A stretch of DNA of 35,026 nt from a virus. Lineage: Duplodnaviria; Heunggongvirae; Uroviricota; Caudoviricetes. Positions 13,426 to 21,068 of the stretch are shown piece after piece. Where the stretch lies: the IMG/VR virus record IMGVR_UViG_2698536657_000017, positions 1 to 35,026 of that record, one strand, 5' to 3'. The position numbers and the translations under genes were made by a program. Positions within the stretch are counted from its first letter, which is position 1; each line of letters opens with the position of its first letter. The notes beneath the pieces are model-generated. The model saw only the letters and a program-made list of their open reading frames with translations. It searched no databases and had not been told where the DNA came from.

Positions 13426-13503
13426 AGCCGGAGATATCCAGTAGACATTTTCCCCCTGAGCATTCAAATCAGAAAAAGTATGGTTACAGCGGAGTACAGA
13501 ATA

Positions 13504-13929
13504 ATGCGTGATATCCAACAGGTTCTGTCCCGATGGGGTGCATGGGTGGTAAATAATCATGAGAGTGTGGCATGGTCCGGCGTCGCTGCCGGATTTAAGG
13601 GAGTGATCCCATCAAAGGTTAAATCACGGCCTCAGTGTACCGATGATGATGCGCTGATTATCAGCAATTGCATGGCGCAACTGAACGTCAACAACAGCGA
13701 TTTGCATGATTTTCTGTATGATTATTATGTGTTCGGGATGACGCTTATGGGACTGGGCCGTAAGCATGAGCGCTCTGATTGCTGGGCCGGGCGGGTACTG
13801 CAAAAAGCTGAAGGTGTTATTGAGGGGATGTTGATTATGCAGGGAATAAAACTGGAAATGGACAGATACGTTGAGCGTGAACGATCAGGGGCACAGGTCA
13901 GTCAGTTTTCCGGACATACGGGAAATTGA
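13504..13929 (+). CDS. Q: Late-gene antiterminator Q, phage 82/21 (QuuD-like) type (141 aa)
   Basis: [60 protein letters not shown] matches my memory of Q82/QuuD-family proteins. I preferred this start over 13480 because GGAG lies upstream of it. Confidence 0.85.
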
Positions 13930-13953
13930 AAGCGCGGGGTTTTACTGTAGAAT
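13926..13953 (+). promoter_or_regulatory. Sigma70 promoter (TTGAAA-16-TAGAAT), most likely the hok mRNA promoter
   Basis: -35 at 13926-13931 (overlapping the Q stop codon) and -10 at 13948-13953. The predicted start at about 13961 coincides with GGTGCTTGAGG, which resembles the conserved 5' end of hok-family mRNAs. Confidence 0.55.
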
Positions 13954-14019
13954 GACTGCGGGTGCTTGAGGGTGTCTGCCTCGGGCATGCTGCCGTAAGG
14001 CAGACGGAGAAAAGCCCCA

Positions 14020-14080
14020 GTTAACATTACGCGTCCTGCAAGACGCTTAACATTAATCTGAGGCCAATTTCATGCTGAAC
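14020..14080 (-). ncRNA. sok: Sok-like antisense RNA (boundaries approximate)
   Basis: Minus-strand promoter TTGCCT-17-TAACCT (-35 at 14110-14115, -10 at 14087-14092) points into the hok leader. The transcript would be complementary to the upstream in-frame ATG (14072) region. It contains the hairpin GCGTC-N6-GACGC (14031-14046). Confidence 0.4.
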
Positions 14081-14128
14081 ACATGTAGGTTAGCCTCTTA
14101 CGTGCCGAAAGGCAAGGAGAAGCAGGCT

Positions 14129-14284
14129 ATGAAGCAGCAAAAGGCGATGTTAATCGCCCTGATCGTCATCTGTTTAACCGTCATTCTGACGGTACTGGTA
14201 GCGAGGAAAGACCTCTGCGATGTACGAATCCGAACCGGCCAGACGGAGGTCGCTGTCTTCGTAGACTACGAATCTGAGAAGTAA
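14129..14284 (+). CDS. hok: Hok/Gef-family type I toxin, HokD/RelF-like (51 aa)
   Basis: MKQQKAMLIALIVICLTVILTVLVARKDLCDVRIRTGQTEVAVFVDYESEK is near-identical in pattern to RelF/HokD as I remember it. AAGGAG RBS. The upstream leader resembles the hok mRNA fold-back elements. An in-frame upstream ATG at 14072 occupies the mok position. Confidence 0.9.
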   Translation: MKQQKAMLIALIVICLTVILTVLVARKDLCDVRIRTGQTEVAVFVDYESEK

Positions 14285-14458
14285 GAGACCTGGCGGGGGA
14301 GTAATCTCCCGCCCCCTCTGATGTGTCAGGCATCCTCAACGCACCCGTACTTTAGTTGTCATATGCTCCGCAAAATGCAGGTTGTCGTTGCAACCCGTGC
14401 GGTAATTTTTTGTGTGCGAGTGCTCAAAAAACGTTGATTTTCATAAAAGGACGATTTT

Positions 14459-16543
14459 ATGCTGCCAGACCAGCGACCAGCGACCAGCGACCGTAAATCA
14501 AGAAAGTCTGTAAAATCTGTTGAACCAGACATTGCCGACCGGGCTAACAACTGGCTCAAATCTTATGGACTTGATTACAAACTGGAGCAGGCACCACTTA
14601 ACAACGAGATCGATAACGCACTGGATGCTTATTTTTCGAAAAATGGCGGCACAGGCGGTAATCGTCCCGACGTAAAACTCCTTGTTCAGGACAAATACGG
14701 CAAGCAGTATCCCGTTCTCATCGAGTATAAAGGCTACAAGGACAGGCTTATCAGACTTGGCAGCAACGGTATTATTGAGAACAAAGATGCCAGAAAAGAA
14801 TGGAATTTTAAAAATATTAATGGATACGCGGTGAATGGCGCAGTCCATTATGCCAACGCACTTCTTCAGTTCACCAATTACCCTGATATTATTGCTATTG
14901 GTATGACCGGCTGGCGCGATGATGGTACAGGCGAACTGCATCATGAAATCGGCGTGTGGTACGTATCAAAGAATAATTTAGGAGCCGGGCAGAAGGTTGG
15001 TGAATTCACCGACTTATCGTTCCTTGCTGACAAAAATGTTGATGGATTTCTCAACAAGATAAAGCTGCTTAATCTTCCTCCCGAAGAACTGGAAAAAATC
15101 AAGGCCAGCAAAGAGGAAGAGATAGACACGCGACTTTCCCGTCTGAATAACGATATTTACCAGAATGAAAAGGGGCTTGGTGAAAGCGATCGTGTTTACC
15201 TTGTTGTGGCTACCGTTATTGCAACGTTGGGGATTCCGGGAAAGTTAGCACCGCTGGATAAAAAAGAACTGACCTCTTCAACGGAGGAGGACTTGCGTGA
15301 TGGTGATATTATTTTCAGGAAAATAAGGAATTTTTTAAGGCTGAAAGCTGTTCCTGAAACAAAAAGAGAAATGATTTTGCGCTCGTTGCAAAATACGCTG
15401 TGGACTGAAAACATTAACAAACCAGTCAACGGTGAAAGCCAGTTAAAGCGCGTGTTTGTTAAAGTTGTTGATGATCTTGGGGAGTATTACAAAATCGGAC
15501 TGACCACTGATTTTACGGGCAAACTGTTTAATGAGATGTATCGCTGGCTTGGATTTACGCAGGACAAACTCAATGACGTCGTTCTGACACCACCTTATGT
15601 TGCCACATTGCTGGCACGACTCGCCAGAGTAAACAAAGATTCCTATGTGTGGGATTTTGCTACAGGTTCTGCGGGATTGCTTGTGGCTGCAATGAATGAA
15701 ATGCTCATTGACGCCAGAGAAAATATTCACTCACCGAATGAACTACAACTTAAGGAAGCGCAAATCAAGGCTGAACAGCTTCTTGGCCTTGAGGTGTTAT
15801 CCAGTATTTATATGCTGGCCATCCTGAATATGATTTTGATGGGGGATGGTAGCTCGAATATCCTCAATAAAGACTCGCTAGCCGATTTTGACGGCAAGTA
15901 TGGATTTGGGAAAACAGGAGAAAAATTCCCTGCGGACGCATTTATTCTCAATCCTCCGTATTCAGCTAAAGGTAACGGCATGATTTTCGTGCAGAAGGCG
16001 CTGTCGATGATGGATAAAGGCTATGCTGCAGTGATTATCCAGAGTTCAGCCGGCACAGGAAAGGCTACGGAGTACAACAAAAAAATACTCAAGGAAAATA
16101 CCTTGCTGGCAAGCATCAAAATGCCTGCGGATCTGTTTATTGGTAAATCAAGCGTTCAGACGTACATTTACGTTTTTCAGGTAAAAATTCCGCATAACGC
16201 GAAACAGGCTGTTAAGTTTATCGACTTTTCCAATGACGGCTATGCTCGCTCTAATCGCAAAAAGGCAAGAAACAATCTTGTTGATGCCGATCGTGCAAAA
16301 GAGCGTTATCAGGAGGTTGTGGATCTGGTTCACTTCGGGAAAGGTTGCCTTAATATCTTTACGGAGGATGAATATTTTGAGGGAACAATCGATCCTGATA
16401 GTGGTGAGGACTGGAATCAGACCAGGCCAGTAGATGCTAGGCCAACGCTGGATGATTTCAAAAAGACGGTAGGTGATTACCTTGCATGGGAGGTCTCGCA
16501 ATTACTGAAAAAACAAGGTGAAAACAATTTTGCGGGAAAGTAA
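14459..16543 (+). CDS. Fused PD-ExK nuclease plus gamma-class N6-adenine DNA methyltransferase, BcgI-A-like RM subunit (694 aa)
   Basis: N-terminal D71-X17-E89-x-K91 (NRPDVKLLV...PVLIEYKG, nt 14666-14731). MTase motif I DFATGSAG (15653-15676) precedes motif IV NPPY (15950-15961). AAGGA RBS. It is followed by an HsdS-like gene, and no HsdR-like gene is present. Confidence 0.85.
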   Translation: MLPDQRPATSDRKSRKSVKSVEPDIADRANNWLKSYGLDYKLEQAPLNNEIDNALDAYFSKNGGTGGNRPDVKLLVQDKYGKQYPVLIEYKGYKDRLIRLGSNGIIENKDARKEWNFKNINGYAVNGAVHYANALLQFTNYPDIIAIGMTGWRDDGTGELHHEIGVWYVSKNNLGAGQKVGEFTDLSFLADKNVDGFLNKIKLLNLPPEELEKIKASKEEEIDTRLSRLNNDIYQNEKGLGESDRVYLVVATVIATLGIPGKLAPLDKKELTSSTEEDLRDGDIIFRKIRNFLRLKAVPETKREMILRSLQNTLWTENINKPVNGESQLKRVFVKVVDDLGEYYKIGLTTDFTGKLFNEMYRWLGFTQDKLNDVVLTPPYVATLLARLARVNKDSYVWDFATGSAGLLVAAMNEMLIDARENIHSPNELQLKEAQIKAEQLLGLEVLSSIYMLAILNMILMGDGSSNILNKDSLADFDGKYGFGKTGEKFPADAFILNPPYSAKGNGMIFVQKALSMMDKGYAAVIIQSSAGTGKATEYNKKILKENTLLASIKMPADLFIGKSSVQTYIYVFQVKIPHNAKQAVKFIDFSNDGYARSNRKKARNNLVDADRAKERYQEVVDLVHFGKGCLNIFTEDEYFEGTIDPDSGEDWNQTRPVDARPTLDDFKKTVGDYLAWEVSQLLKKQGENNFAGK
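14468..14492 (+). repeat. Heptanucleotide tandem repeat (GACCAGC) x3.6 inside codons 4-12 of the RM gene
   Basis: Perfect period-7 identity across 14468-14492 (gaccagc gaccagc gaccagc gacc). The unit length is not a multiple of 3. Confidence 0.9.
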
Positions 16544-16602
16544 ATTCCCCGCTCAGCGATAAATTAAGAAGCGTTGAGTGGGGAGAGTTCAGGATTGGCG
16601 AT

Positions 16603-17139
16603 TTGTTCTATGTGAGCACAGGCTCGCTTATCTCCTCAGGAAGATTAAAACCAGGCAAAATTAAACGTGTTTCAGCAAAGAGCGATCAAAACGGTATCAT
16701 CGGAGAGTTTGATACCGAGTTTATGGATGATGCAAGGCATTATGAAAATTTTATAAGCGTTAATTTTTTTGGAGATGCTTTTTATCATCCTTATTGTGCC
16801 AGCGTAGAAATGAAGGTGCATGTTCTTACATTAAAATCAAGTAAGTCCGACTTTAATGCAAAGCGCGGACTGTATGTTGCCAGTATGATTAATAAAGCTT
16901 TAAAGGGGCGTTTTAATTATGGTCAACAGTTATCGAGTTCCAAACTCAGAGATGGAGAATATTTCATCTCATTACCAGTGAAAAATAATGAAATTGACTG
17001 GTTTTTTATGGATAATTATATAGAAGAGCTGGAAGCGGCCCATATAGAAGAGCTGGAAGCTTACTTGCTGGTTAGCGGACTCGCGGACTCGCGGACTCGC
17101 GGACTCGCGGACTCGCGGACTCGCGGACTCGCGGACTGA
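16603..17139 (+). CDS. HsdS-like specificity subunit, N-terminal half (TRD1 plus central helix), terminated inside or after an 8-mer repeat tract
   Basis: The frame is open from 16522. It has the conserved S-subunit N-terminal motif VEWGEFRIGDLF, a TRD-like body, and a coiled-coil FFMDNYIEELEAAHIEELEAYL. It then reads through the repeat as GLADSRTRGLADSRTRGLAD and stops at TGA 17137. The only start codon after the motif region is TTG at 16603. Confidence 0.7.
   Translation: MFYVSTGSLISSGRLKPGKIKRVSAKSDQNGIIGEFDTEFMDDARHYENFISVNFFGDAFYHPYCASVEMKVHVLTLKSSKSDFNAKRGLYVASMINKALKGRFNYGQQLSSSKLRDGEYFISLPVKNNEIDWFFMDNYIEELEAAHIEELEAYLLVSGLADSRTRGLADSRTRGLAD
17018..17060 (+). repeat. In-frame 24-bp tandem duplication (ATATAGAAGAGCTGGAAGC core, x1.8) in the S central helix
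   Basis: Copies at 17018-17036 and 17042-17060 are identical and have a 24-nt period. They encode IEELEAAH/IEELEAYL. Confidence 0.85.
17075..17137 (+). repeat. Octanucleotide tandem repeat (GCGGACTC) x7.9 between the two halves of the S gene
   Basis: There are 7 perfect units at 17075-17130 plus 7 nt of an eighth. The unit length is not a multiple of 3. The flanking ORFs are in different frames (pos mod 3 = 1 upstream, 0 downstream). Confidence 0.97.
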
Positions 17140-17723: not shown

Positions 17724-17845
17724 TGCAAATCCCCACCTGACAGGGTGGGGAATGGTCAGGTTATCGTGCCCTGATGCAGAAAAACAGTTTACAATCGTAA
17801 AAATCATCATATCATGACAAAAGTGGTTACATTGCCACGCAGCCG

Positions 17846-17870
17846 AACCCGCCGATGCGCGGGTTTTTTG
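17846..17870 (+). terminator. Intrinsic terminator
   Basis: AACCCGC-cgat-GCGGGTT followed by a T6 run. Confidence 0.7.
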
Positions 17871-18050
17871 TATCCGGAATCCTGTGAGTTATACGGAAAG
17901 TACACAGAAAGGAAGGTGCGACCGCAATTAATAACAAAATCTTAAAAATTGCATATGGCACTATTAGTTTTCTAAATATTGTATATTTTGAGTATTGCAG
18001 GATATCCCCTGTAACGAAGTTTGCGTAACAGCATTTTACTCTACGAGTTT

Positions 18051-18081
18051 GCCAGCCTCCCCCAGTGGGCTGGCTTTTTTT
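18051..18081 (+). terminator. Intrinsic terminator
   Basis: GCCAGCC-tcccccagtg-GGCTGGC followed by T7. The T-run occurs only in the plus orientation. Confidence 0.65.
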
Positions 18082-18298
18082 ATCTGATGCGCTTCACATC
18101 AGGGTGACGTTCTGTTGCCGCTTCATGGAAAATGTCGCTGAGCCAGCCCGGTATCTCGTCTTCTGTCATATCGTCTGGAATGACAATATCGTATAACCGG
18201 GAGAATTTTCGTTCTGTCAGGTCTGCCCGGAAGACCAGCCAGTGATCACCTTCACGTTTGACACCAATATGTCGACCAAAGACGTTGTAGATTAGCAC
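18080..18298 (-). CDS. Hypothetical small acidic protein (72 aa, GTG start)
   Basis: AAGAGG RBS 6 nt upstream of the GTG. It is the only convincing minus-strand gene inside the rightward late region. No family recognised. Confidence 0.55.
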   Translation of the reverse strand: MLIYNVFGRHIGVKREGDHWLVFRADLTERKFSRLYDIVIPDDMTEDEIPGWLSDIFHEAATERHPDVKRIR

Positions 18299-18485
18299 TA
18301 TCGACCTCTTTCAGGAATTGTGTAACTGAGATGACAGATTCAGATTTCGTCAATAAATGCAAAATGTCAATCCTGAGATCATGGTGAGCTATCTGGCGGT
18401 TTTTTATATCTGTTTAACGGGGGATGTTACATACCTCACAATTCAGTCAGTTGAAGGTTGTCTGCCCGGATGAGAATTTGTTAGA

Positions 18486-18663
18486 AAATTTCTGCATGGT
18501 GAATCCCCCTGAGCGGAGGGGCATATCAGCGACAGGTGGTTGGTTATATCCCTTATCTGGTGCGGGTTCAGGTGCTGATACTGAACTCACCGGGAGGCAC
18601 CCGGCACCATGCAATGAACGGTACATAGCGCTACTCTTCAGCCCCTCTCCGGAGGGGCTTTTT
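18486..18663 (+). ncRNA. Candidate structured RNA / short terminated transcript, unit 1 (ends approximate)
   Basis: Promoter-like TTGAAG (18451-18456) with TGaGAATTT downstream. Closing helix TGCATGGTG (18493-18501) pairs with CACCATGCA (18605-18613). Hairpins CCCCT-N6-AGGGG and CCGGG-aggca-CCCGG. Terminator AGCCCCTC-tccg-GAGGGGCT-TTTT (18640-18663). Confidence 0.45.
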
Positions 18664-18752
18664 AATGAGGGGAAGACACTGGGCAGTGAAATGTTAAATC
18701 ACTCACAATTCAGGTAGTTGACGGTTGTCTGCTTGGCTGAGAATTTGTAAAA

Positions 18753-18939
18753 AAAATCCTGCATGGTGAATCCCCCTGTGCGGAGGGGCGACTGGTGAAT
18801 GGTATGATCTCTTTGATGATCGTAAGCGAGAATACGCGGGTTTGGTGGCACCAGGCCGAACTCACCGGGAGGCACCCGGCACCATGCAGTATACAGAGAT
18901 TAGGCATATACCAAGGCCCCTCATAGCAGGGGCCTTTTT
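18753..18939 (+). ncRNA. Candidate structured RNA / short terminated transcript, unit 2 (ends approximate)
   Basis: Promoter-like TTGACG with TGaGAATTT. Perfect 10-bp closing helix CTGCATGGTG (18759-18768) pairs with CACCATGCAG (18880-18889). It has the same two hairpins as unit 1. It has its own terminator AGGCCCCT-catagc-AGGGGCCT-TTTT (18914-18939). Confidence 0.45.
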
Positions 18940-19157
18940 ACATGCAAAAAAAGCCGCCCCGGGAAGAGCGGTTGGCAAGAAGAAAAGCAATATGAACAAT
19001 TAATTAACGATGGGAATAATACCTTAGAGTAATCACCTTGCGCAACTGTAAGGGCATATTTCATCTTTGCGGGCTGTTTTTCCGGGTGACTTCTGTGTTT
19101 CCGGAGGCCAGCCTGTACCTTCTCTGACTCAGAACATTATCCCGGCCGGGAGGATTC

Positions 19158-21068
19158 ATGGCATTTAAACACTATGACGTGGTCAGGGCGGCGTCGCCGT
19201 CAGACCTTGCGGAACGAATAACTCAAAAACTGAAGGAAGGGTGGCAGCCTTATGGTAGTGCGCTGATTTCGACAGCTGGTTATGGTGCGGAGTTCATCCA
19301 GCCAGTTGTGAGTGAGGGGAGCATCTCATCACCAGAGGAGCCAGGCAACCGTCCGACGACCTCAGCGCCTTCTGTTGCGCCAGAATATTACTATGTGATC
19401 GCGCTTGCTGGTCAGTCCAATGGTATGTCATACGGTGAGGGACTGCCATTACCGGATACATTCGACAGCCCTGATCCACGTATTAAACAGTTAGCGCGTC
19501 GCAGTACGGTGACACCGGGAGGTGCTGCATGTATCTATAACGATATTATCCCGGCAGATCACTGTCTCCATGATGTGGAGGATATGACAGGGCTTAATCA
19601 TCCCAAAGCGGATTTATCGAAAGGTCAGTACGGCTGTGTGGGACAGGGGCTGCATATCGCCAAAAAGCTTCTGCCATTTATACCGGCGAATGCGGGCATT
19701 CTTCTTGTTCCGTGCTGCCGTGGTGGTTCAGCTTTCACCACCGGAACCGATGGCACATACAGTGACACTACTGGCGCCTCAGAGAGTTCCACCCGCTGGG
19801 GGGTGGGCAGGCCGCTGTATAAGGACCTCATTGGTCGTACAAAAGCCGCGCTGGCGAAGAATCCGAAAAATGTGCTGCTTGCCGTGGTATGGATGCAAGG
19901 GGAATTTGATTTTAACGGAACGCCAGCGAATCATGCAGCCCGTTTTACAGAAGTGGTGGATCAATACCGTGCGGACCTTGCAGATATGGCGGGGCAGTGT
20001 GTGGGTGGCTCAGCTGACAGTGTTCCCTGGATTTGTGGAGACACAACATATTTCTGGAAGCAGAAGAACGAAACGGCGTACCAGACGGTGTACGGTAGTT
20101 ACAAAAATAAAACGGAAAAGAATATCCATTTCGTGCCGTTCATGACCGATGAGAACGGGGTGAATGTGCCGACGAACAAACCGGAAGAAGACCCGGATAT
20201 TCCGGATATCGGGTATTACGGTTCAAAATGGCGAACGGACAGAAGCACCTGGACATCTCAGGACAGGGCCAGTCATTTCAGTTCATGGGCTCGCCGTGGG
20301 ATTATTTCCGACCGTCTGGCAACGGCGATTCTGAGCTGCGCGGGTAAGTCTTCTGCGTTTGTTAATGGTACTGCCGGGGTGGTTGTTCCAGACAGACCGG
20401 TTACCACCTCAGAGTCTGTAATTTTTTACGATGCCAAAAAAGCTTCAGACAATCAGCTGAAACCTTATGGCTGGGACGGTATGGATGGCAGACGCACACT
20501 GGTTGATGACAGCGGCAATAAAGCTCTGCGAATTGAGAAAAATAACAGCGCGAAATCCTGGTCAATGTACTGTGATATTGCTGCAGACAAGGCAAAACTT
20601 TTACTGGAAAAAGGCGGGGAAATTGCTGTCCGGTTTAAAATCCCCGAAAACGTCAATCTTGAGACAACCAGAAACAAGTATGCCTTTGGTTTGTACTGGC
20701 GAATAGCGGAATGGCCGGGTGAGGGTGGTGAAGGCTATCTGAGTTCTTTCTTTGTCCAGACAGATAAAGCCAGTATTGATGTTGCATACCATCATACAGT
20801 TAATCAACAAAAAGAACTTGGCACGTTTGGCGCATTCGACCATGACTGGCATACGCTTGCATTTAAATTTAAGGGCAGTAACAGCATTAATGTTACTCCG
20901 GTGCTTGATGGTGTGGATGGACAGGCGTTTGACCTGGTGAAATGGGCCAATACTGCTAATGGACTCAACAGGTTTGTCATTACGGATATTACAGGTAGTG
21001 CAGAAACCTACCCTGTACTTATTGATACGGTGGAAGTTAAAGCAAACAAAGCTGGAGCAGCCGCATAA
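19158..21068 (+). CDS. nanS-p: Prophage sialate O-acetylesterase NanS-p type (DUF1737 N-terminus plus SASA/DUF303 esterase plus C-terminal domain), 636 aa
   Basis: N-terminal MAFKHYDVVRAASPSDLAERITQKLKEGWQPYGS (DUF1737-like). Esterase block YYYVIALAGQSNGMSYGEG with the GQSN motif. The size and the position downstream of the Q/stx slot match NanS-p genes of Stx phages, from memory. Confidence 0.85.
   Translation: MAFKHYDVVRAASPSDLAERITQKLKEGWQPYGSALISTAGYGAEFIQPVVSEGSISSPEEPGNRPTTSAPSVAPEYYYVIALAGQSNGMSYGEGLPLPDTFDSPDPRIKQLARRSTVTPGGAACIYNDIIPADHCLHDVEDMTGLNHPKADLSKGQYGCVGQGLHIAKKLLPFIPANAGILLVPCCRGGSAFTTGTDGTYSDTTGASESSTRWGVGRPLYKDLIGRTKAALAKNPKNVLLAVVWMQGEFDFNGTPANHAARFTEVVDQYRADLADMAGQCVGGSADSVPWICGDTTYFWKQKNETAYQTVYGSYKNKTEKNIHFVPFMTDENGVNVPTNKPEEDPDIPDIGYYGSKWRTDRSTWTSQDRASHFSSWARRGIISDRLATAILSCAGKSSAFVNGTAGVVVPDRPVTTSESVIFYDAKKASDNQLKPYGWDGMDGRRTLVDDSGNKALRIEKNNSAKSWSMYCDIAADKAKLLLEKGGEIAVRFKIPENVNLETTRNKYAFGLYWRIAEWPGEGGEGYLSSFFVQTDKASIDVAYHHTVNQQKELGTFGAFDHDWHTLAFKFKGSNSINVTPVLDGVDGQAFDLVKWANTANGLNRFVITDITGSAETYPVLIDTVEVKANKAGAAA

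What the first reader, a model, noticed from the sequence alone, without database searches (positions are those of the whole stretch)
18424..18950. Two tandem promoter / structured RNA / terminator units with a conserved scaffold and a divergent core
The two units have a 267-bp period.

Shared elements of each unit:
- A promoter-like TTGA(A/C)G ... TGaGAATTT.
- An A/T-rich initial region with -10-like sequence (TAGAAAAT in unit 1, TAAAAAAA in unit 2).
- A 9-10 bp long-range helix, CTGCATGGTG pairing with CACCATGCAG, that closes about 120-130 nt.
- A CCCCT-N6-AGGGG hairpin, where the only difference between the units falls in the loop.
- A CCGGG-aggca-CCCGG hairpin inside a 31-nt block that is identical in both units.
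- An independent, non-homologous intrinsic terminator.

The 60-70 nt between the conserved modules is unrelated between the two units. No credible ORF is present: the 97-aa track ORF spans both hairpins and the first terminator.

I see two readings:
- Duplicated Q-responsive late-promoter leaders, that is PR' / short 6S-like RNA / tR' units. Their position just upstream of nanS-p and the lysis genes fits this, and the site next to Q is taken by hok.
- A pair of prophage sRNAs with a common scaffold and swappable, target-specifying cores.

I do not recognise the fold as a known RNA family.
Basis: seen in the sequence. Interest (0 to 1): 0.7.

Follow-up and report, generated by a model that had tools for sequence, protein, structure and literature searches.

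The report
Two tandem STnc100-family prophage small RNAs
The region holds two adjacent copies of a known prophage small-RNA gene family (Rfam STnc100, related to EcOnc27/sRNA103 and PasD of pathogenic E. coli); they are not copies of the phage late promoter, so the finding is real but largely explained already.

Summary
Window 18424-18957 contains two head-to-tail units with a 267-bp period. They share a 99-nt 5' block (86% identical) and a 31-nt block (100% identical), and each has a divergent middle and its own terminator.

The fold is a known family. Both units match Rfam RF02076 (STnc100) over the full model, at 153 and 200 bits against a gathering score of 47. Unit 2 carries the exact 35-nt target of the published EcOnc27/sRNA103 northern probe.

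Across 96 distinct relatives the closing helix and one internal hairpin show compensatory changes. The family is a mosaic: the scaffold is conserved, while promoter, core, 3' linker and terminator modules reassort.

The late-promoter (PR') reading is rejected. A 94%-identical copy of the mapped Stx-phage PR'-StxS-tR' segment lies at 17780-18081, about 370 bp upstream. The same tandem pair also follows a different Q allele in a Stx1c phage.

The most likely function is two independent Hfq-associated, trans-acting sRNAs made in the lysogen. Target specificity probably lies in the 3' linker and/or the core. Q-modified polymerase would read through both terminators during lytic growth. Targets and exact 5' ends remain unknown.

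Verdict: a new member of a known kind, of modest interest.

The parts
18424..18690 (+). Repeat unit 1: upstream conserved block, sRNA body and terminator
   Evidence: Direct repeat D1 with 267-nt spacing; pairwise alignment
18465..18670 (+). STnc100 family member a (unit 1)
   Evidence: cmscan RF02076, 153.3 bits against a gathering score of 47, model positions 1-206 of 206
18691..18957 (+). Repeat unit 2
18732..18945 (+). STnc100 family member b (unit 2), of the EcOnc27/sRNA103 3'-end type
   Evidence: cmscan RF02076, 199.8 bits. The target of the EcOnc27 northern probe matches 18884-18918 at 35 of 35 bases.
18435..18446 (+). Conserved upstream box CTCACAATTCAG, role unknown. The unit 2 copy is at 18702-18713.
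   Evidence: At least 95% conserved among 45 A-type upstream regions; coordinates
18451..18487 (+). Overlapping promoter candidates of unit 1. P-b (favoured): TTGTCT 18458-63, 18-nt spacer, TGtTAGAAA 18479-87, with a start near G18494.
   Evidence: TTTGTTAAAA is at least 95% conserved and sits at a fixed distance from the closing helix in both promoter types. The PasD2 5' end maps to the G of GCATGG behind TTGACT-18-TAAAAA. The generic promoter scan reports neither candidate.
18718..18753 (+). Promoter candidates of unit 2: TTGACG 18718-23; TTGTCT 18725-30, 17-nt spacer, TAAAAA 18748-53, with a start near 18760-61
18492..18614 (+). Structured scaffold of unit 1: closing helix 18492-501/18605-14; hairpin H2 18505-21; hairpin H3/4 18564-88; hairpin H5 18590-604
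   Evidence: Minimum-free-energy fold; covariation on 96 relatives
18523..18562 (+). Variable core of unit 1
   Evidence: Core segment: mean pairwise identity 0.59, 24 clusters at 80% identity
18615..18639 (+). 3' linker of unit 1, a candidate seed and Hfq-binding region
   Evidence: Linker segment: mean pairwise identity 0.57, 26 clusters. The assignment rests on analogy with the PasD seed position.
18640..18663 (+). Intrinsic terminator of unit 1
   Evidence: Terminator scan
18759..18889 (+). Structured scaffold of unit 2: closing helix 18759-68/18880-89; H2 18772-88; H3/4 18838-63; H5 18865-79
18790..18836 (+). Variable core of unit 2
18890..18914 (+). 3' linker of unit 2, identical to the EcOnc27 linker
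18915..18939 (+). Intrinsic terminator of unit 2
   Evidence: (inverted repeat I1)
17788..18081 (+). Context: late promoter PR' (-35 TTTACA 17788-93, -10 TATCAT 17810-15), StxS-like leader and tR' (18051-81)
   Evidence: 92-94% identical to the segment just downstream of Q in VT2-Sakai and phiSTEC1589-Stx1c. The PR'-to-tR' distance of 258 nt was mapped by Sy et al. 2020.
18946..19045 (-). Context: probable convergent short sRNA, the positional analogue of AsxR/AgvB: -35 TTGCGC 19045-40, -10 TATTAT 19021-16, terminator 18971-46
   Evidence: Alignment with the AsxR locus of VT2-Sakai: shared promoter position and terminator tail, unrelated body; terminator scan
19158..21068 (+). Context: nanS-p-like SASA esterase, the first late gene downstream
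   Evidence: Pfam DUF1737, SASA and DUF6645

Best explanation
These are two separate, tandem genes for small regulatory RNAs of the STnc100 family. They sit in the 'moron' slot of a lambdoid, Stx-phage-like prophage, between the late promoter/terminator (PR'-tR') and the nanS-p esterase and lysis genes.

How each unit is built:
- Each has its own sigma-70-type promoter and its own intrinsic terminator, so each should be made as a discrete RNA of about 175-185 nt in the lysogen.
- Each RNA has a conserved five-way-junction domain: a closing helix enclosing four hairpins, three conserved (H2, H3/4, H5) and one lying in the variable core.
- A single-stranded 3' linker and the terminator hairpin follow that domain.

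Proposed mechanism (inferred):
- By analogy with its characterised relatives, the 3' linker plus terminator binds Hfq and carries, or contributes to, the seed that pairs with target mRNAs or sRNAs in trans.
- The two units differ in core and linker, so they should have different target sets.
- After induction, Q-modified RNA polymerase starting at PR' (17.8 kb) reads through tR' and both sRNA terminators into nanS-p and the lysis genes.

Status of each step:
- Shown here: family membership, conserved structure with covariation, non-coding nature, mosaic module structure, and the position relative to PR'.
- Taken from the literature on relatives: transcription, Hfq binding, RpoD binding, and the seed position in PasD.
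- Inferred: that these two copies are expressed, their 5' ends, where their seeds lie, and read-through by Q.
For: - Rfam: full-length RF02076 hits at 153.3 and 199.8 bits against a gathering score of 47.
- Folding: z = -3.85 and -3.84.
- Structure across 96 distinct relatives: 90.7% of cells form standard pairs, against 41-49% when the 3' partners are slid. Twenty-three pairs show changes on both sides, against 9.2 in shuffles (0 of 500 shuffles reach the observed value). H3/4 pair 150-182 is GC in 43 sequences and AU in 41. Six of the nine closing-helix pairs have compensatory changes.
- Coding: the ORF is not coding.
- Identity of unit 2: its linker equals the EcOnc27 probe target at 35 of 35 bases. 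EcOnc27 is northern-positive, its 247-nt band is destabilised without Hfq, and its Hfq-CRAC peak covers the last 80 nt.
- Expression of relatives: STnc100 copies are transcribed in EDL933, and one is confirmed by northern blot. RpoD binds STnc100 promoters in Salmonella.
- PasD link: PasD1 and PasD2 are Hfq-bound RIL-seq sRNAs, reported as structural relatives of STnc100 with different seeds. My own scan scores them 41 and 38 bits, below the gathering score.
- Position: the same position upstream of the esterase is found in VT2-Sakai and in phiSTEC1589-Stx1c. The latter carries the same tandem pair.
- Module reassortment: 49 promoter/core/linker combinations among the 96 sequences.
Against: - There are no expression data for this strain.
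- The 5' ends are unresolved. The EcOnc27 northern bands are about 235 and 247 nt, longer than the roughly 175-185 nt predicted from either promoter candidate.
- The generic promoter scan reports no promoter inside the units.
- No target is known. I could not screen for targets because the host genome is not available and the in-window duplex scan timed out.
- My homolog set was seeded with a pattern that fixes parts of the closing helix and of H5. This inflates the apparent conservation of the scaffold.
- RNAalifold on the same alignment prefers an alternative pairing between the invariant GGUGAAUCC and GGGAGGCACC stretches.
Confidence: 0.78

Rival explanations
1. The units are duplicated Q-responsive late-promoter leaders (PR' / short 6S-like RNA / tR'), the first reader's reading 1.
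For: - Each unit does have a promoter-like element, an A/T-rich stretch and a terminator upstream of the late genes.
- The site directly after Q is occupied by the hok promoter and hok/sok.
Against: - A 92-94% identical copy of the Stx-phage PR'-StxS-tR' segment is present separately at 17780-18081. That segment has a mapped transcription start and a mapped 3' end 258 nt downstream.
- In VT2-Sakai and in the Stx1c phage, the STnc100 units lie downstream of stx, 2 kb or more from Q and PR'.
- The same tandem pair, about 91% identical, follows a Q933-type allele in phiSTEC1589. The Q in this window is only about 59% identical to that allele. The promoter region therefore does not co-vary with Q as a qut site would.
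- The A-rich box is better explained as the -10 element itself.
Confidence: 0.03
2. The functional part is the conserved scaffold, acting as a protein-docking or titrating RNA (for CsrA and/or Hfq). In this view the variable parts are neutral or merely guide the bound protein.
For: - The scaffold is far more conserved than the core or the linker.
- GGA-containing motifs recur at hairpin loop-stem junctions: CCCCT-N-GGAGGGGC occurs four times, plus GGGAGGC in H5.
- PasD2 forms the most abundant CsrA-bound chimera, with the yjbJ 3'UTR, in EPEC CsrA RIL-seq.
Against: - There are only two or three GGA motifs per RNA, each partly inside a stem.
- The GGA of H2 is lost in 17 of the 96 relatives (pair 68-75).
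- The invariance of H5 is partly forced by my search pattern.
- No CsrA data exist for STnc100 proper.
Confidence: 0.12
3. The units act mainly in cis, as terminator/insulator cassettes or as RNA processing and stability elements of the late transcript upstream of nanS-p. In this view the short RNAs are by-products.
For: - The units have a constant position just upstream of the esterase gene in many prophages.
- Two or three successive terminators lie between PR' and the late genes.
Against: - A promoter box is conserved at a fixed distance from the structured domain, in two unrelated upstream contexts.
- Relatives bind Hfq and have many trans partners in RIL-seq.
- The structured domain shows covariation, which a simple terminator would not need.
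Confidence: 0.06
4. The region is a degraded or small protein-coding gene (the 97-aa ORF).
For: An ATG-initiated 97-aa ORF spans 18424-18717. A 99-aa counterpart is annotated as hypothetical in phiSTEC1589-Stx1c.
Against: - Substitutions fall evenly over the codon positions (11/9/11), and there are 2-nt and 4-nt indels against the homolog.
- The median longest sense ORF across 156 units is 32 aa.
- The ORF has no Pfam hit.
Confidence: 0.01

Closest known systems
STnc100 (Rfam RF02076), a gammaproteobacterial prophage sRNA first listed in Salmonella
   Same: Both units match the whole model with all its helices, at 3-4 times the gathering score. They sit in the same prophage context.
   Different: Nothing that defines the family differs. 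What is particular here is that two heterotypic members abut head to tail with a 267-bp period. The Rfam model's 5' end probably includes promoter DNA.
EcOnc27 / sRNA103, the Hfq-binding sRNA 3' of stx2B in O157 Sp5/933W
   Same: Unit 2 has the same scaffold, an identical 3' linker and a nearly identical terminator. It occupies the same position upstream of nanS-p and has a convergent minus-strand partner gene.
   Different: The internal core of unit 2 differs from that of EcOnc27 (a different 80% cluster). No stx lies upstream in this window. The convergent partner is not AsxR. Unit 1 has a different linker type.
PasD1 / PasD2, EPEC E2348/69 Hfq RIL-seq sRNAs
   Same: They share the closing helix, H2 and H3/4, and the same position upstream of the esterase or lysis genes. 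The A-rich -10 box lies at the same distance from the helix.
   Different: PasD lacks H5, uses a different upstream (B-type) promoter module, and has a different 3' tail carrying the UGUGAG seed. That seed is absent from both units here. PasD scores below the STnc100 gathering threshold (41 and 38 bits).
StxS / lambda 6S RNA, the PR'-tR' terminated leader transcripts
   Same: They are also short terminated RNAs made in lysogens upstream of the late genes. StxS also binds Hfq.
   Different: They differ in sequence and fold. StxS arises from the Q-controlled promoter next to Q. The StxS-type segment is a separate feature of this window (17780-18081).
AsxR / AgvB anti-sRNAs
   Same: They belong to the same 'convergent sRNA dyad' locus in the moron site.
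   Different: They are encoded on the opposite strand, are 51-60 nt long and are unrelated in sequence. In this window the opposite-strand partner is a different, unnamed candidate.

Membership tests
STnc100 (RF02076) | Covariance-model score at or above the curated gathering score, over the full model | tested here: met
   153.3 and 199.8 bits against 47; model positions 1-206 of 206 for both units
STnc100 (RF02076) | Consensus helices: closing helix, CCCCC/GGGGG hairpin, GGGUU../..AACUC hairpin, CCGGG/CCCGG hairpin, terminator | tested here: met
   All are present in both single-sequence folds. They are supported on 96 relatives.
STnc100 (RF02076) | Location in a lambdoid prophage late region | tested here: met
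   The window carries Q, PR'-tR', esterase, holin, lysozyme and Rz.
STnc100 (RF02076) | Expressed as a discrete small RNA | not testable with these tools
   Only relatives have been tested: RNA-seq and northern in EDL933 and RpoD ChIP-exo in LT2.
EcOnc27 / sRNA103 | Sequence of the 3' linker targeted by the published northern probe | tested here: met
   Unit 2 matches at 18884-18918, 35 of 35 bases. Unit 1 has no match.
EcOnc27 / sRNA103 | Convergent pairing with AsxR, directly 3' of stx2B | tested here: not met
   The window has no AsxR or AgvB hit and no stx. A positional analogue with an unrelated body is present.
EcOnc27 / sRNA103 | Hfq binding and Hfq-dependent stability | not testable with these tools
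   Known only for the Sakai copy.
PasD1 / PasD2 | Seed UGUGAG in the U-rich 3' tail, and the PasD-type terminator GGCTGCGCAT.GCGC.GCC | tested here: not met
   The linkers of the two units are AATGAACGGTACATAGCGCTACTCTTC and GTATACAGAGATTAGGCATATACCAA. Neither contains TGTGAG, and the terminators differ from the PasD type.
PasD1 / PasD2 | B-type upstream module: TTGA(C/T)T, 18-nt spacer, TAAAAA | tested here: not met
   Both units carry the A-type module, CTCACAATTCAG..TTGAxG..TTGTCT.
Lambdoid PR'-tR' leader (lambda 6S RNA / StxS) | Promoter immediately downstream of Q, or homologous to a mapped PR' | tested here: not met
   The units lie 4.5 kb from Q. The segment homologous to the mapped PR' is at 17780-18081 instead.
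Lambdoid PR'-tR' leader (lambda 6S RNA / StxS) | The qut/promoter region co-varies with the Q allele | tested here: not met
   The same pair of units is found behind a Q about 59% identical to this window's Q.
Lambdoid PR'-tR' leader (lambda 6S RNA / StxS) | Sigma-70-dependent promoter-proximal pause and Q loading | not testable with these tools
   This needs in vitro transcription with Q.
CsrB/RsmZ-type CsrA-binding RNAs | Multiple GGA motifs exposed in hairpin loops | tested here: inconclusive
   There are two or three GGA motifs per RNA, at loop-stem junctions. The GGA of H2 is lost in 17 of 96 relatives. PasD2 is CsrA-associated in a 2026 preprint.

The most novel reading that the evidence does not exclude
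The conserved STnc100/PasD scaffold is a chaperone-docking platform (Hfq and/or CsrA) and also a recombination handle. Interchangeable core and linker modules program the bound protein onto different targets. Tandem arrays such as this one (two units here, up to four in one viral contig) would then be natural multiplexed 'guide' cassettes carried by Stx-type phages.
Probability: 0.12. Interest if true: 0.65.

Novelty: new member of a known kind. Interest (0 to 1): 0.3.

Why it matters
STnc100 is among the most frequently annotated sRNA families in enterobacterial genomes, yet it has no assigned function. Copies sit next to the Shiga toxin genes, and variants 3' of stx2 were recently linked statistically to clinical outcome.

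This analysis shows that the family is a mosaic of a conserved, covarying scaffold and reassorting promoter, core, linker and terminator modules. It also shows that heterotypic units are often stacked in tandem. Together these give concrete, testable constructs for finding seeds and targets: core swaps against linker swaps.

For this window specifically, the practical result is a corrected annotation: two sRNA genes, a displaced PR'-StxS-tR' segment, and a probable new convergent sRNA. It is not a new kind of element.

Tried and rejected
- IpeX of the K-12 prophage DLP12 as a possible family member with a known function: nhmmer with the family profile finds nothing in the quuD-essD region of MG1655. 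Rejected.
- PasA near the esterase: the probe sequence has no match in the window with up to 3 mismatches.
- Mapped transcription starts from the Sakai dRNA-seq data: the supplement of Sy et al. is not held. The 5' ends stay unresolved.
- The EcOnc13 probe listed in the Tree et al. supplement does not map to the Sp3 PasD-like locus I fetched. I did not use it as evidence that the upstream leader is transcribed.
- A duplex-energy scan of the cores and linkers against the whole window timed out. I dropped it, because the host core genome, where most targets should lie, is not available.
- RNAalifold on the MAFFT alignment did not reproduce the closing helix. It paired GGUGAAUCC with GGGAGGCACC instead. 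In the two divergent relatives where the 5' strand has changed (L184:1159-1380 and L072:2668-2889), the closing helix is compensated and the alternative pairing is broken. I therefore keep the closing helix but record the alternative.
- tRNA genes: none in the window.
- The generic sigma-70 scan reports no promoter inside either unit.
Full report
**Observation.** The two units are real.
- The repeat finder reports a 99-nt direct repeat, 18424-18522 and 18691-18789, at 86% identity and 267-nt spacing. It also reports a 31-nt block, 18583-18613 and 18858-18888, at 100% identity. The pairwise alignment agrees.
- Each unit folds on its own into a closing helix around several hairpins, followed by a terminator. 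The fold energies are z = -3.85 and -3.84 against 200 dinucleotide shuffles.
- The 97-aa ORF is an accident. Against the homologous ORF of phage phiSTEC1589-Stx1c, substitutions fall 11/9/11 over the three codon positions, and there are 2-nt and 4-nt indels. Only 2 of 156 family units carry a sense ORF of 90 aa or more. The ORF has no Pfam hit.
- Two details were overstated. The two terminators also share their stem sequence.

**Identity.** The fold is a known family.
- cmscan places both units in Rfam RF02076 (STnc100) over the whole model: 18465-18670 at 153.3 bits and 18732-18945 at 199.8 bits, against a gathering score of 47.
- The literature held here describes STnc100 as follows:
  - It is a multi-copy prophage sRNA, with 11 copies annotated in EDL933. 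The copies are transcribed, and one is northern-positive.
  - One copy lies 75 nt downstream of stx2B in Stx2 phages.
  - It overlaps the Hfq-bound sRNA EcOnc27/sRNA103.
  - RpoD binds its promoters in Salmonella LT2.
  - It has no assigned function.
- The reverse complement of the published EcOnc27 northern probe matches window 18884-18918 at 35 of 35 bases. Unit 2 therefore has the EcOnc27-type 3' end.
- A 2026 preprint from the Storz laboratory reports that the EPEC sRNAs PasD1 and PasD2 are structural relatives of STnc100 with different seed regions. My own scan of the PasD loci gives 41 and 38 bits, below the gathering score.

**Context.** The window is a lambdoid, Stx-phage-like prophage. 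In order it carries:
- Q at 13480-13929 (PF06530);
- hok/sok;
- an N6 methyltransferase and a specificity-subunit-like gene;
- a 173-aa ORF;
- a small minus-strand DUF7661 gene;
- the two sRNA units;
- a nanS-p-like SASA esterase;
- DUF1378, holin, lysozyme and Rz.

The 561-bp query matches 2770 of 5426 complete E. coli genomes. Only 162 of them cover both units. RefSeq annotates nothing under any match. Among phage records, 367 have a match and 26 cover at least 80% of the query. The best of these, phiSTEC1589-Stx1c, has the same tandem pair immediately downstream of stx1cB. VT2-Sakai has a single unit between stx2B and the esterase, abutted by the convergent AsxR gene.

**The late-promoter reading.** It is rejected, for three reasons.
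- Window 17780-18080 is 92-94% identical to the DNA just downstream of Q in VT2-Sakai and in the Stx1c phage.
  - Sy et al. mapped the PR' start in that segment, a tR' 258 nt downstream, and the sRNA StxS as the last 74 nt.
  - In the window the corresponding elements are -35 TTTACA 17788-93, -10 TATCAT 17810-15 and the tR' hairpin plus T-run 18051-81.
  - The late promoter is therefore a separate feature, about 370 bp upstream of unit 1.
- In Stx phages the STnc100 unit lies beyond stx, far from Q.
- The same units follow Q alleles only about 59% identical to each other. A Q-specific qut site would not do that.

**Structure in relatives.**
- I collected relatives with an exact pattern (CATGGTGAATCC, 65-95 nt, CGGGAGGC) in species-representative genomes and in viral contigs.
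- I then ran an nhmmer profile over all fetched loci. It gave 161 hits in 139 loci.
- Besides Escherichia and Shigella, the genome scan returned matches in Klebsiella, Enterobacter and Phytobacter contigs.
- Ninety-six distinct full-length units were aligned as A3.
- For the structure derived from unit 1, 90.7% of cells form standard pairs, against 41-49% when the 3' partners are slid. Twenty-three pairs show changes on both sides, against 9.2 in shuffles (0 of 500 shuffles reach the observed value).
- The clearest covariation is in the GGGUUCAG/CUGAACUC hairpin. Pair 150-182 is GC in 43 sequences and AU in 41. Pair 154-169 is AU in 70, UA in 13 and GC in 6.
- The closing helix is mostly invariant or shows G-U changes. 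It does have compensatory double changes in six of its nine pairs, each contributed by a few divergent sequences.
- H2 and H5 hardly vary, and part of that is forced by my search pattern.
- RNAalifold on the same alignment instead pairs the invariant GGUGAAUCC with GGGAGGCACC. In the two relatives whose 5' strand has changed, the closing helix is compensated and this alternative is broken. I therefore keep the closing helix and note the alternative as unexplained.

**Mosaic architecture.** Segment by segment:

| Segment | Mean pairwise identity | Clusters at 80% identity |
|---|---|---|
| Closing helix 5' strand + H2 | 0.89 | 3 |
| H3/4 + H5 + closing helix 3' strand | 0.81 | 9 |
| Promoter region | 0.69 | 22 |
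| Terminator | 0.64 | 13 |
| Core | 0.59 | 24 |
| Linker | 0.57 | 26 |

- The 96 sequences show 49 different promoter/core/linker combinations. One core type occurs with at least seven linker types.
The 3' linker varies as much as the core.
- Twenty of the 139 loci carry two or more units on one strand, at spacings of about 255-490 nt. One contig (L072) has four units. In the 15 close pairs (under 500 nt apart) that I could parse, the neighbours are heterotypic, with core identity 0.49-0.66.
- The Storz preprint describes Pas copies as distal rather than tandem. This close stacking is therefore a modest addition to what is published.

**Promoter and RNA ends.** The 3' ends are well defined by the intrinsic terminators. 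The 5' ends are not.
It scores only 6-7 of 12 consensus positions. Its -10 is not conserved in relatives (GAGTTT, GCATTT, TTTTTT, CGTTTT).
- The overlapping candidate (P-b) is TTGTCT, a 17-18-nt spacer, then TGtTA(G/A)AAA. It scores 8 of 12 plus an extended -10 TG.
- The TTTGTTAAAA box of P-b is at least 95% conserved among 45 A-type upstream regions. A matching TTATTAAAA box sits at about the same distance (within 2 nt) from the closing helix in the unrelated PasD-type upstream module.
- For PasD2 the RNA-seq-derived 5' end is the G of GCATGG, behind TTGACT-18-TAAAAA.
- I therefore favour starts near 18494 and 18761, giving RNAs of about 170-180 nt whose 5' end lies in the closing helix. This is an inference.
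- The generic scan reports neither candidate.
- The EcOnc27 northern bands of about 235 and 247 nt are longer than either prediction. They could reflect an upstream start near the conserved CTCACAATTCAG box, or read-through into the convergent gene.

**Mechanism.**
- In PasD the RIL-seq-derived seed (UGUGAG) lies in the U-rich linker between the structured domain and the terminator.
- In EcOnc27 the Hfq-CRAC peak covers the last 80 nt.
- By analogy, the linker and terminator of each unit form the Hfq-binding and seed module. The 5' structured domain acts as a stabilising or protein-docking scaffold. The variable core is a second possible specificity element.
- The two units differ in both core and linker, so they should regulate different targets.
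- Q-modified polymerase from PR' must pass tR' and both sRNA terminators to reach nanS-p and the lysis genes. This follows from established knowledge of Q antitermination and was not tested here.
- A CsrA-related role for the scaffold is possible, given the GGA motifs and the finding of PasD2 in the most abundant CsrA chimera. It is weakly supported.

**Verdict.** The finding is a correct description of two tandem members of a known but functionally uncharacterised prophage sRNA family.
- The sRNA reading is supported and the PR' reading is not.
- Novelty is limited to the close heterotypic tandem arrangement, the documented module reassortment, and a corrected local annotation.

Noticed in passing
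window 17780-18081 (+): A 92-94% identical copy of the Stx-phage PR'-StxS-tR' segment lies 3.85 kb downstream of Q rather than directly after it. A block of hok/sok, methyltransferase genes and a 173-aa ORF separates it from Q. Only about the last 21 nt of a Q933-type gene precede it, while the Q in this window is a different allele (about 59% aa identity). Whether this Q can act on this PR' is open.
   Followed up: partly
window 18946-19045 (-): A probable convergent short sRNA gene (about 63 nt) sits at the position AsxR holds in VT2-Sakai. It has the same -35 (TTGCGC), a -10 TATTAT and a good terminator (18971-18946), but its body is unrelated to AsxR. It has no Rfam hit. The same sequence is present in phiSTEC1589-Stx1c.
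   Followed up: partly
window 13926-14285 (+): A strong promoter (TTGAAA, 16-nt spacer, TAGAAT) overlaps the Q stop codon and drives a hok/sok locus (Rfam sok, 108 bits). It occupies the site where PR' sits in Stx phages.
   Followed up: partly
window 14459-17139 (+): A 694-aa N6 DNA methylase with a weak VRR-NUC match, followed by a 178-aa type I specificity-domain protein, lies inside the late-region insertion. No restriction subunit was seen nearby.
   Followed up: no
window 18080-18298 (-): A small minus-strand gene (72 aa, DUF7661, E = 1e-28) occupies the 'moron' slot between tR' and unit 1, where Stx phages carry tRNAs and stx.
   Followed up: no
alignment A3 columns 51-65 with 188-201; window 18494-18508 with 18592-18605: The invariant stretches GGUGAAUCC(C) and GGGAGGCACC are complementary to each other. 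RNAalifold prefers this pairing to the closing helix plus H5. It could be an alternative conformer or a tertiary contact. Two divergent relatives argue against it as the main fold.
   Followed up: partly
window 18506-18522, 18642-18658, 18773-18789, 18917-18933: A 17-nt motif CCCCT-N6-(G/C)AGGGGC occurs four times. It forms hairpin H2 and the terminator hairpin of both units, and three of the four copies have a GGA at the loop-stem junction.
   Followed up: no
L072 2255-3368 (-), IMG/VR contig IMGVR_UViG_2861053794_000003: Four STnc100-like units lie in tandem within about 1.1 kb. Several other viral contigs carry heterotypic pairs 460-490 nt apart, with an unexamined spacer of about 270 nt between the units.
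   Followed up: no
L189 (Sakai Sp5) about 292-522, compared with window unit 2: The published EcOnc27 northern sizes (about 235 and 247 nt) exceed the roughly 175-185 nt predicted from the promoter candidates and the terminator. Either the start is upstream, near the CTCACAATTCAG box, or transcripts read through into the AsxR gene.
   Followed up: no
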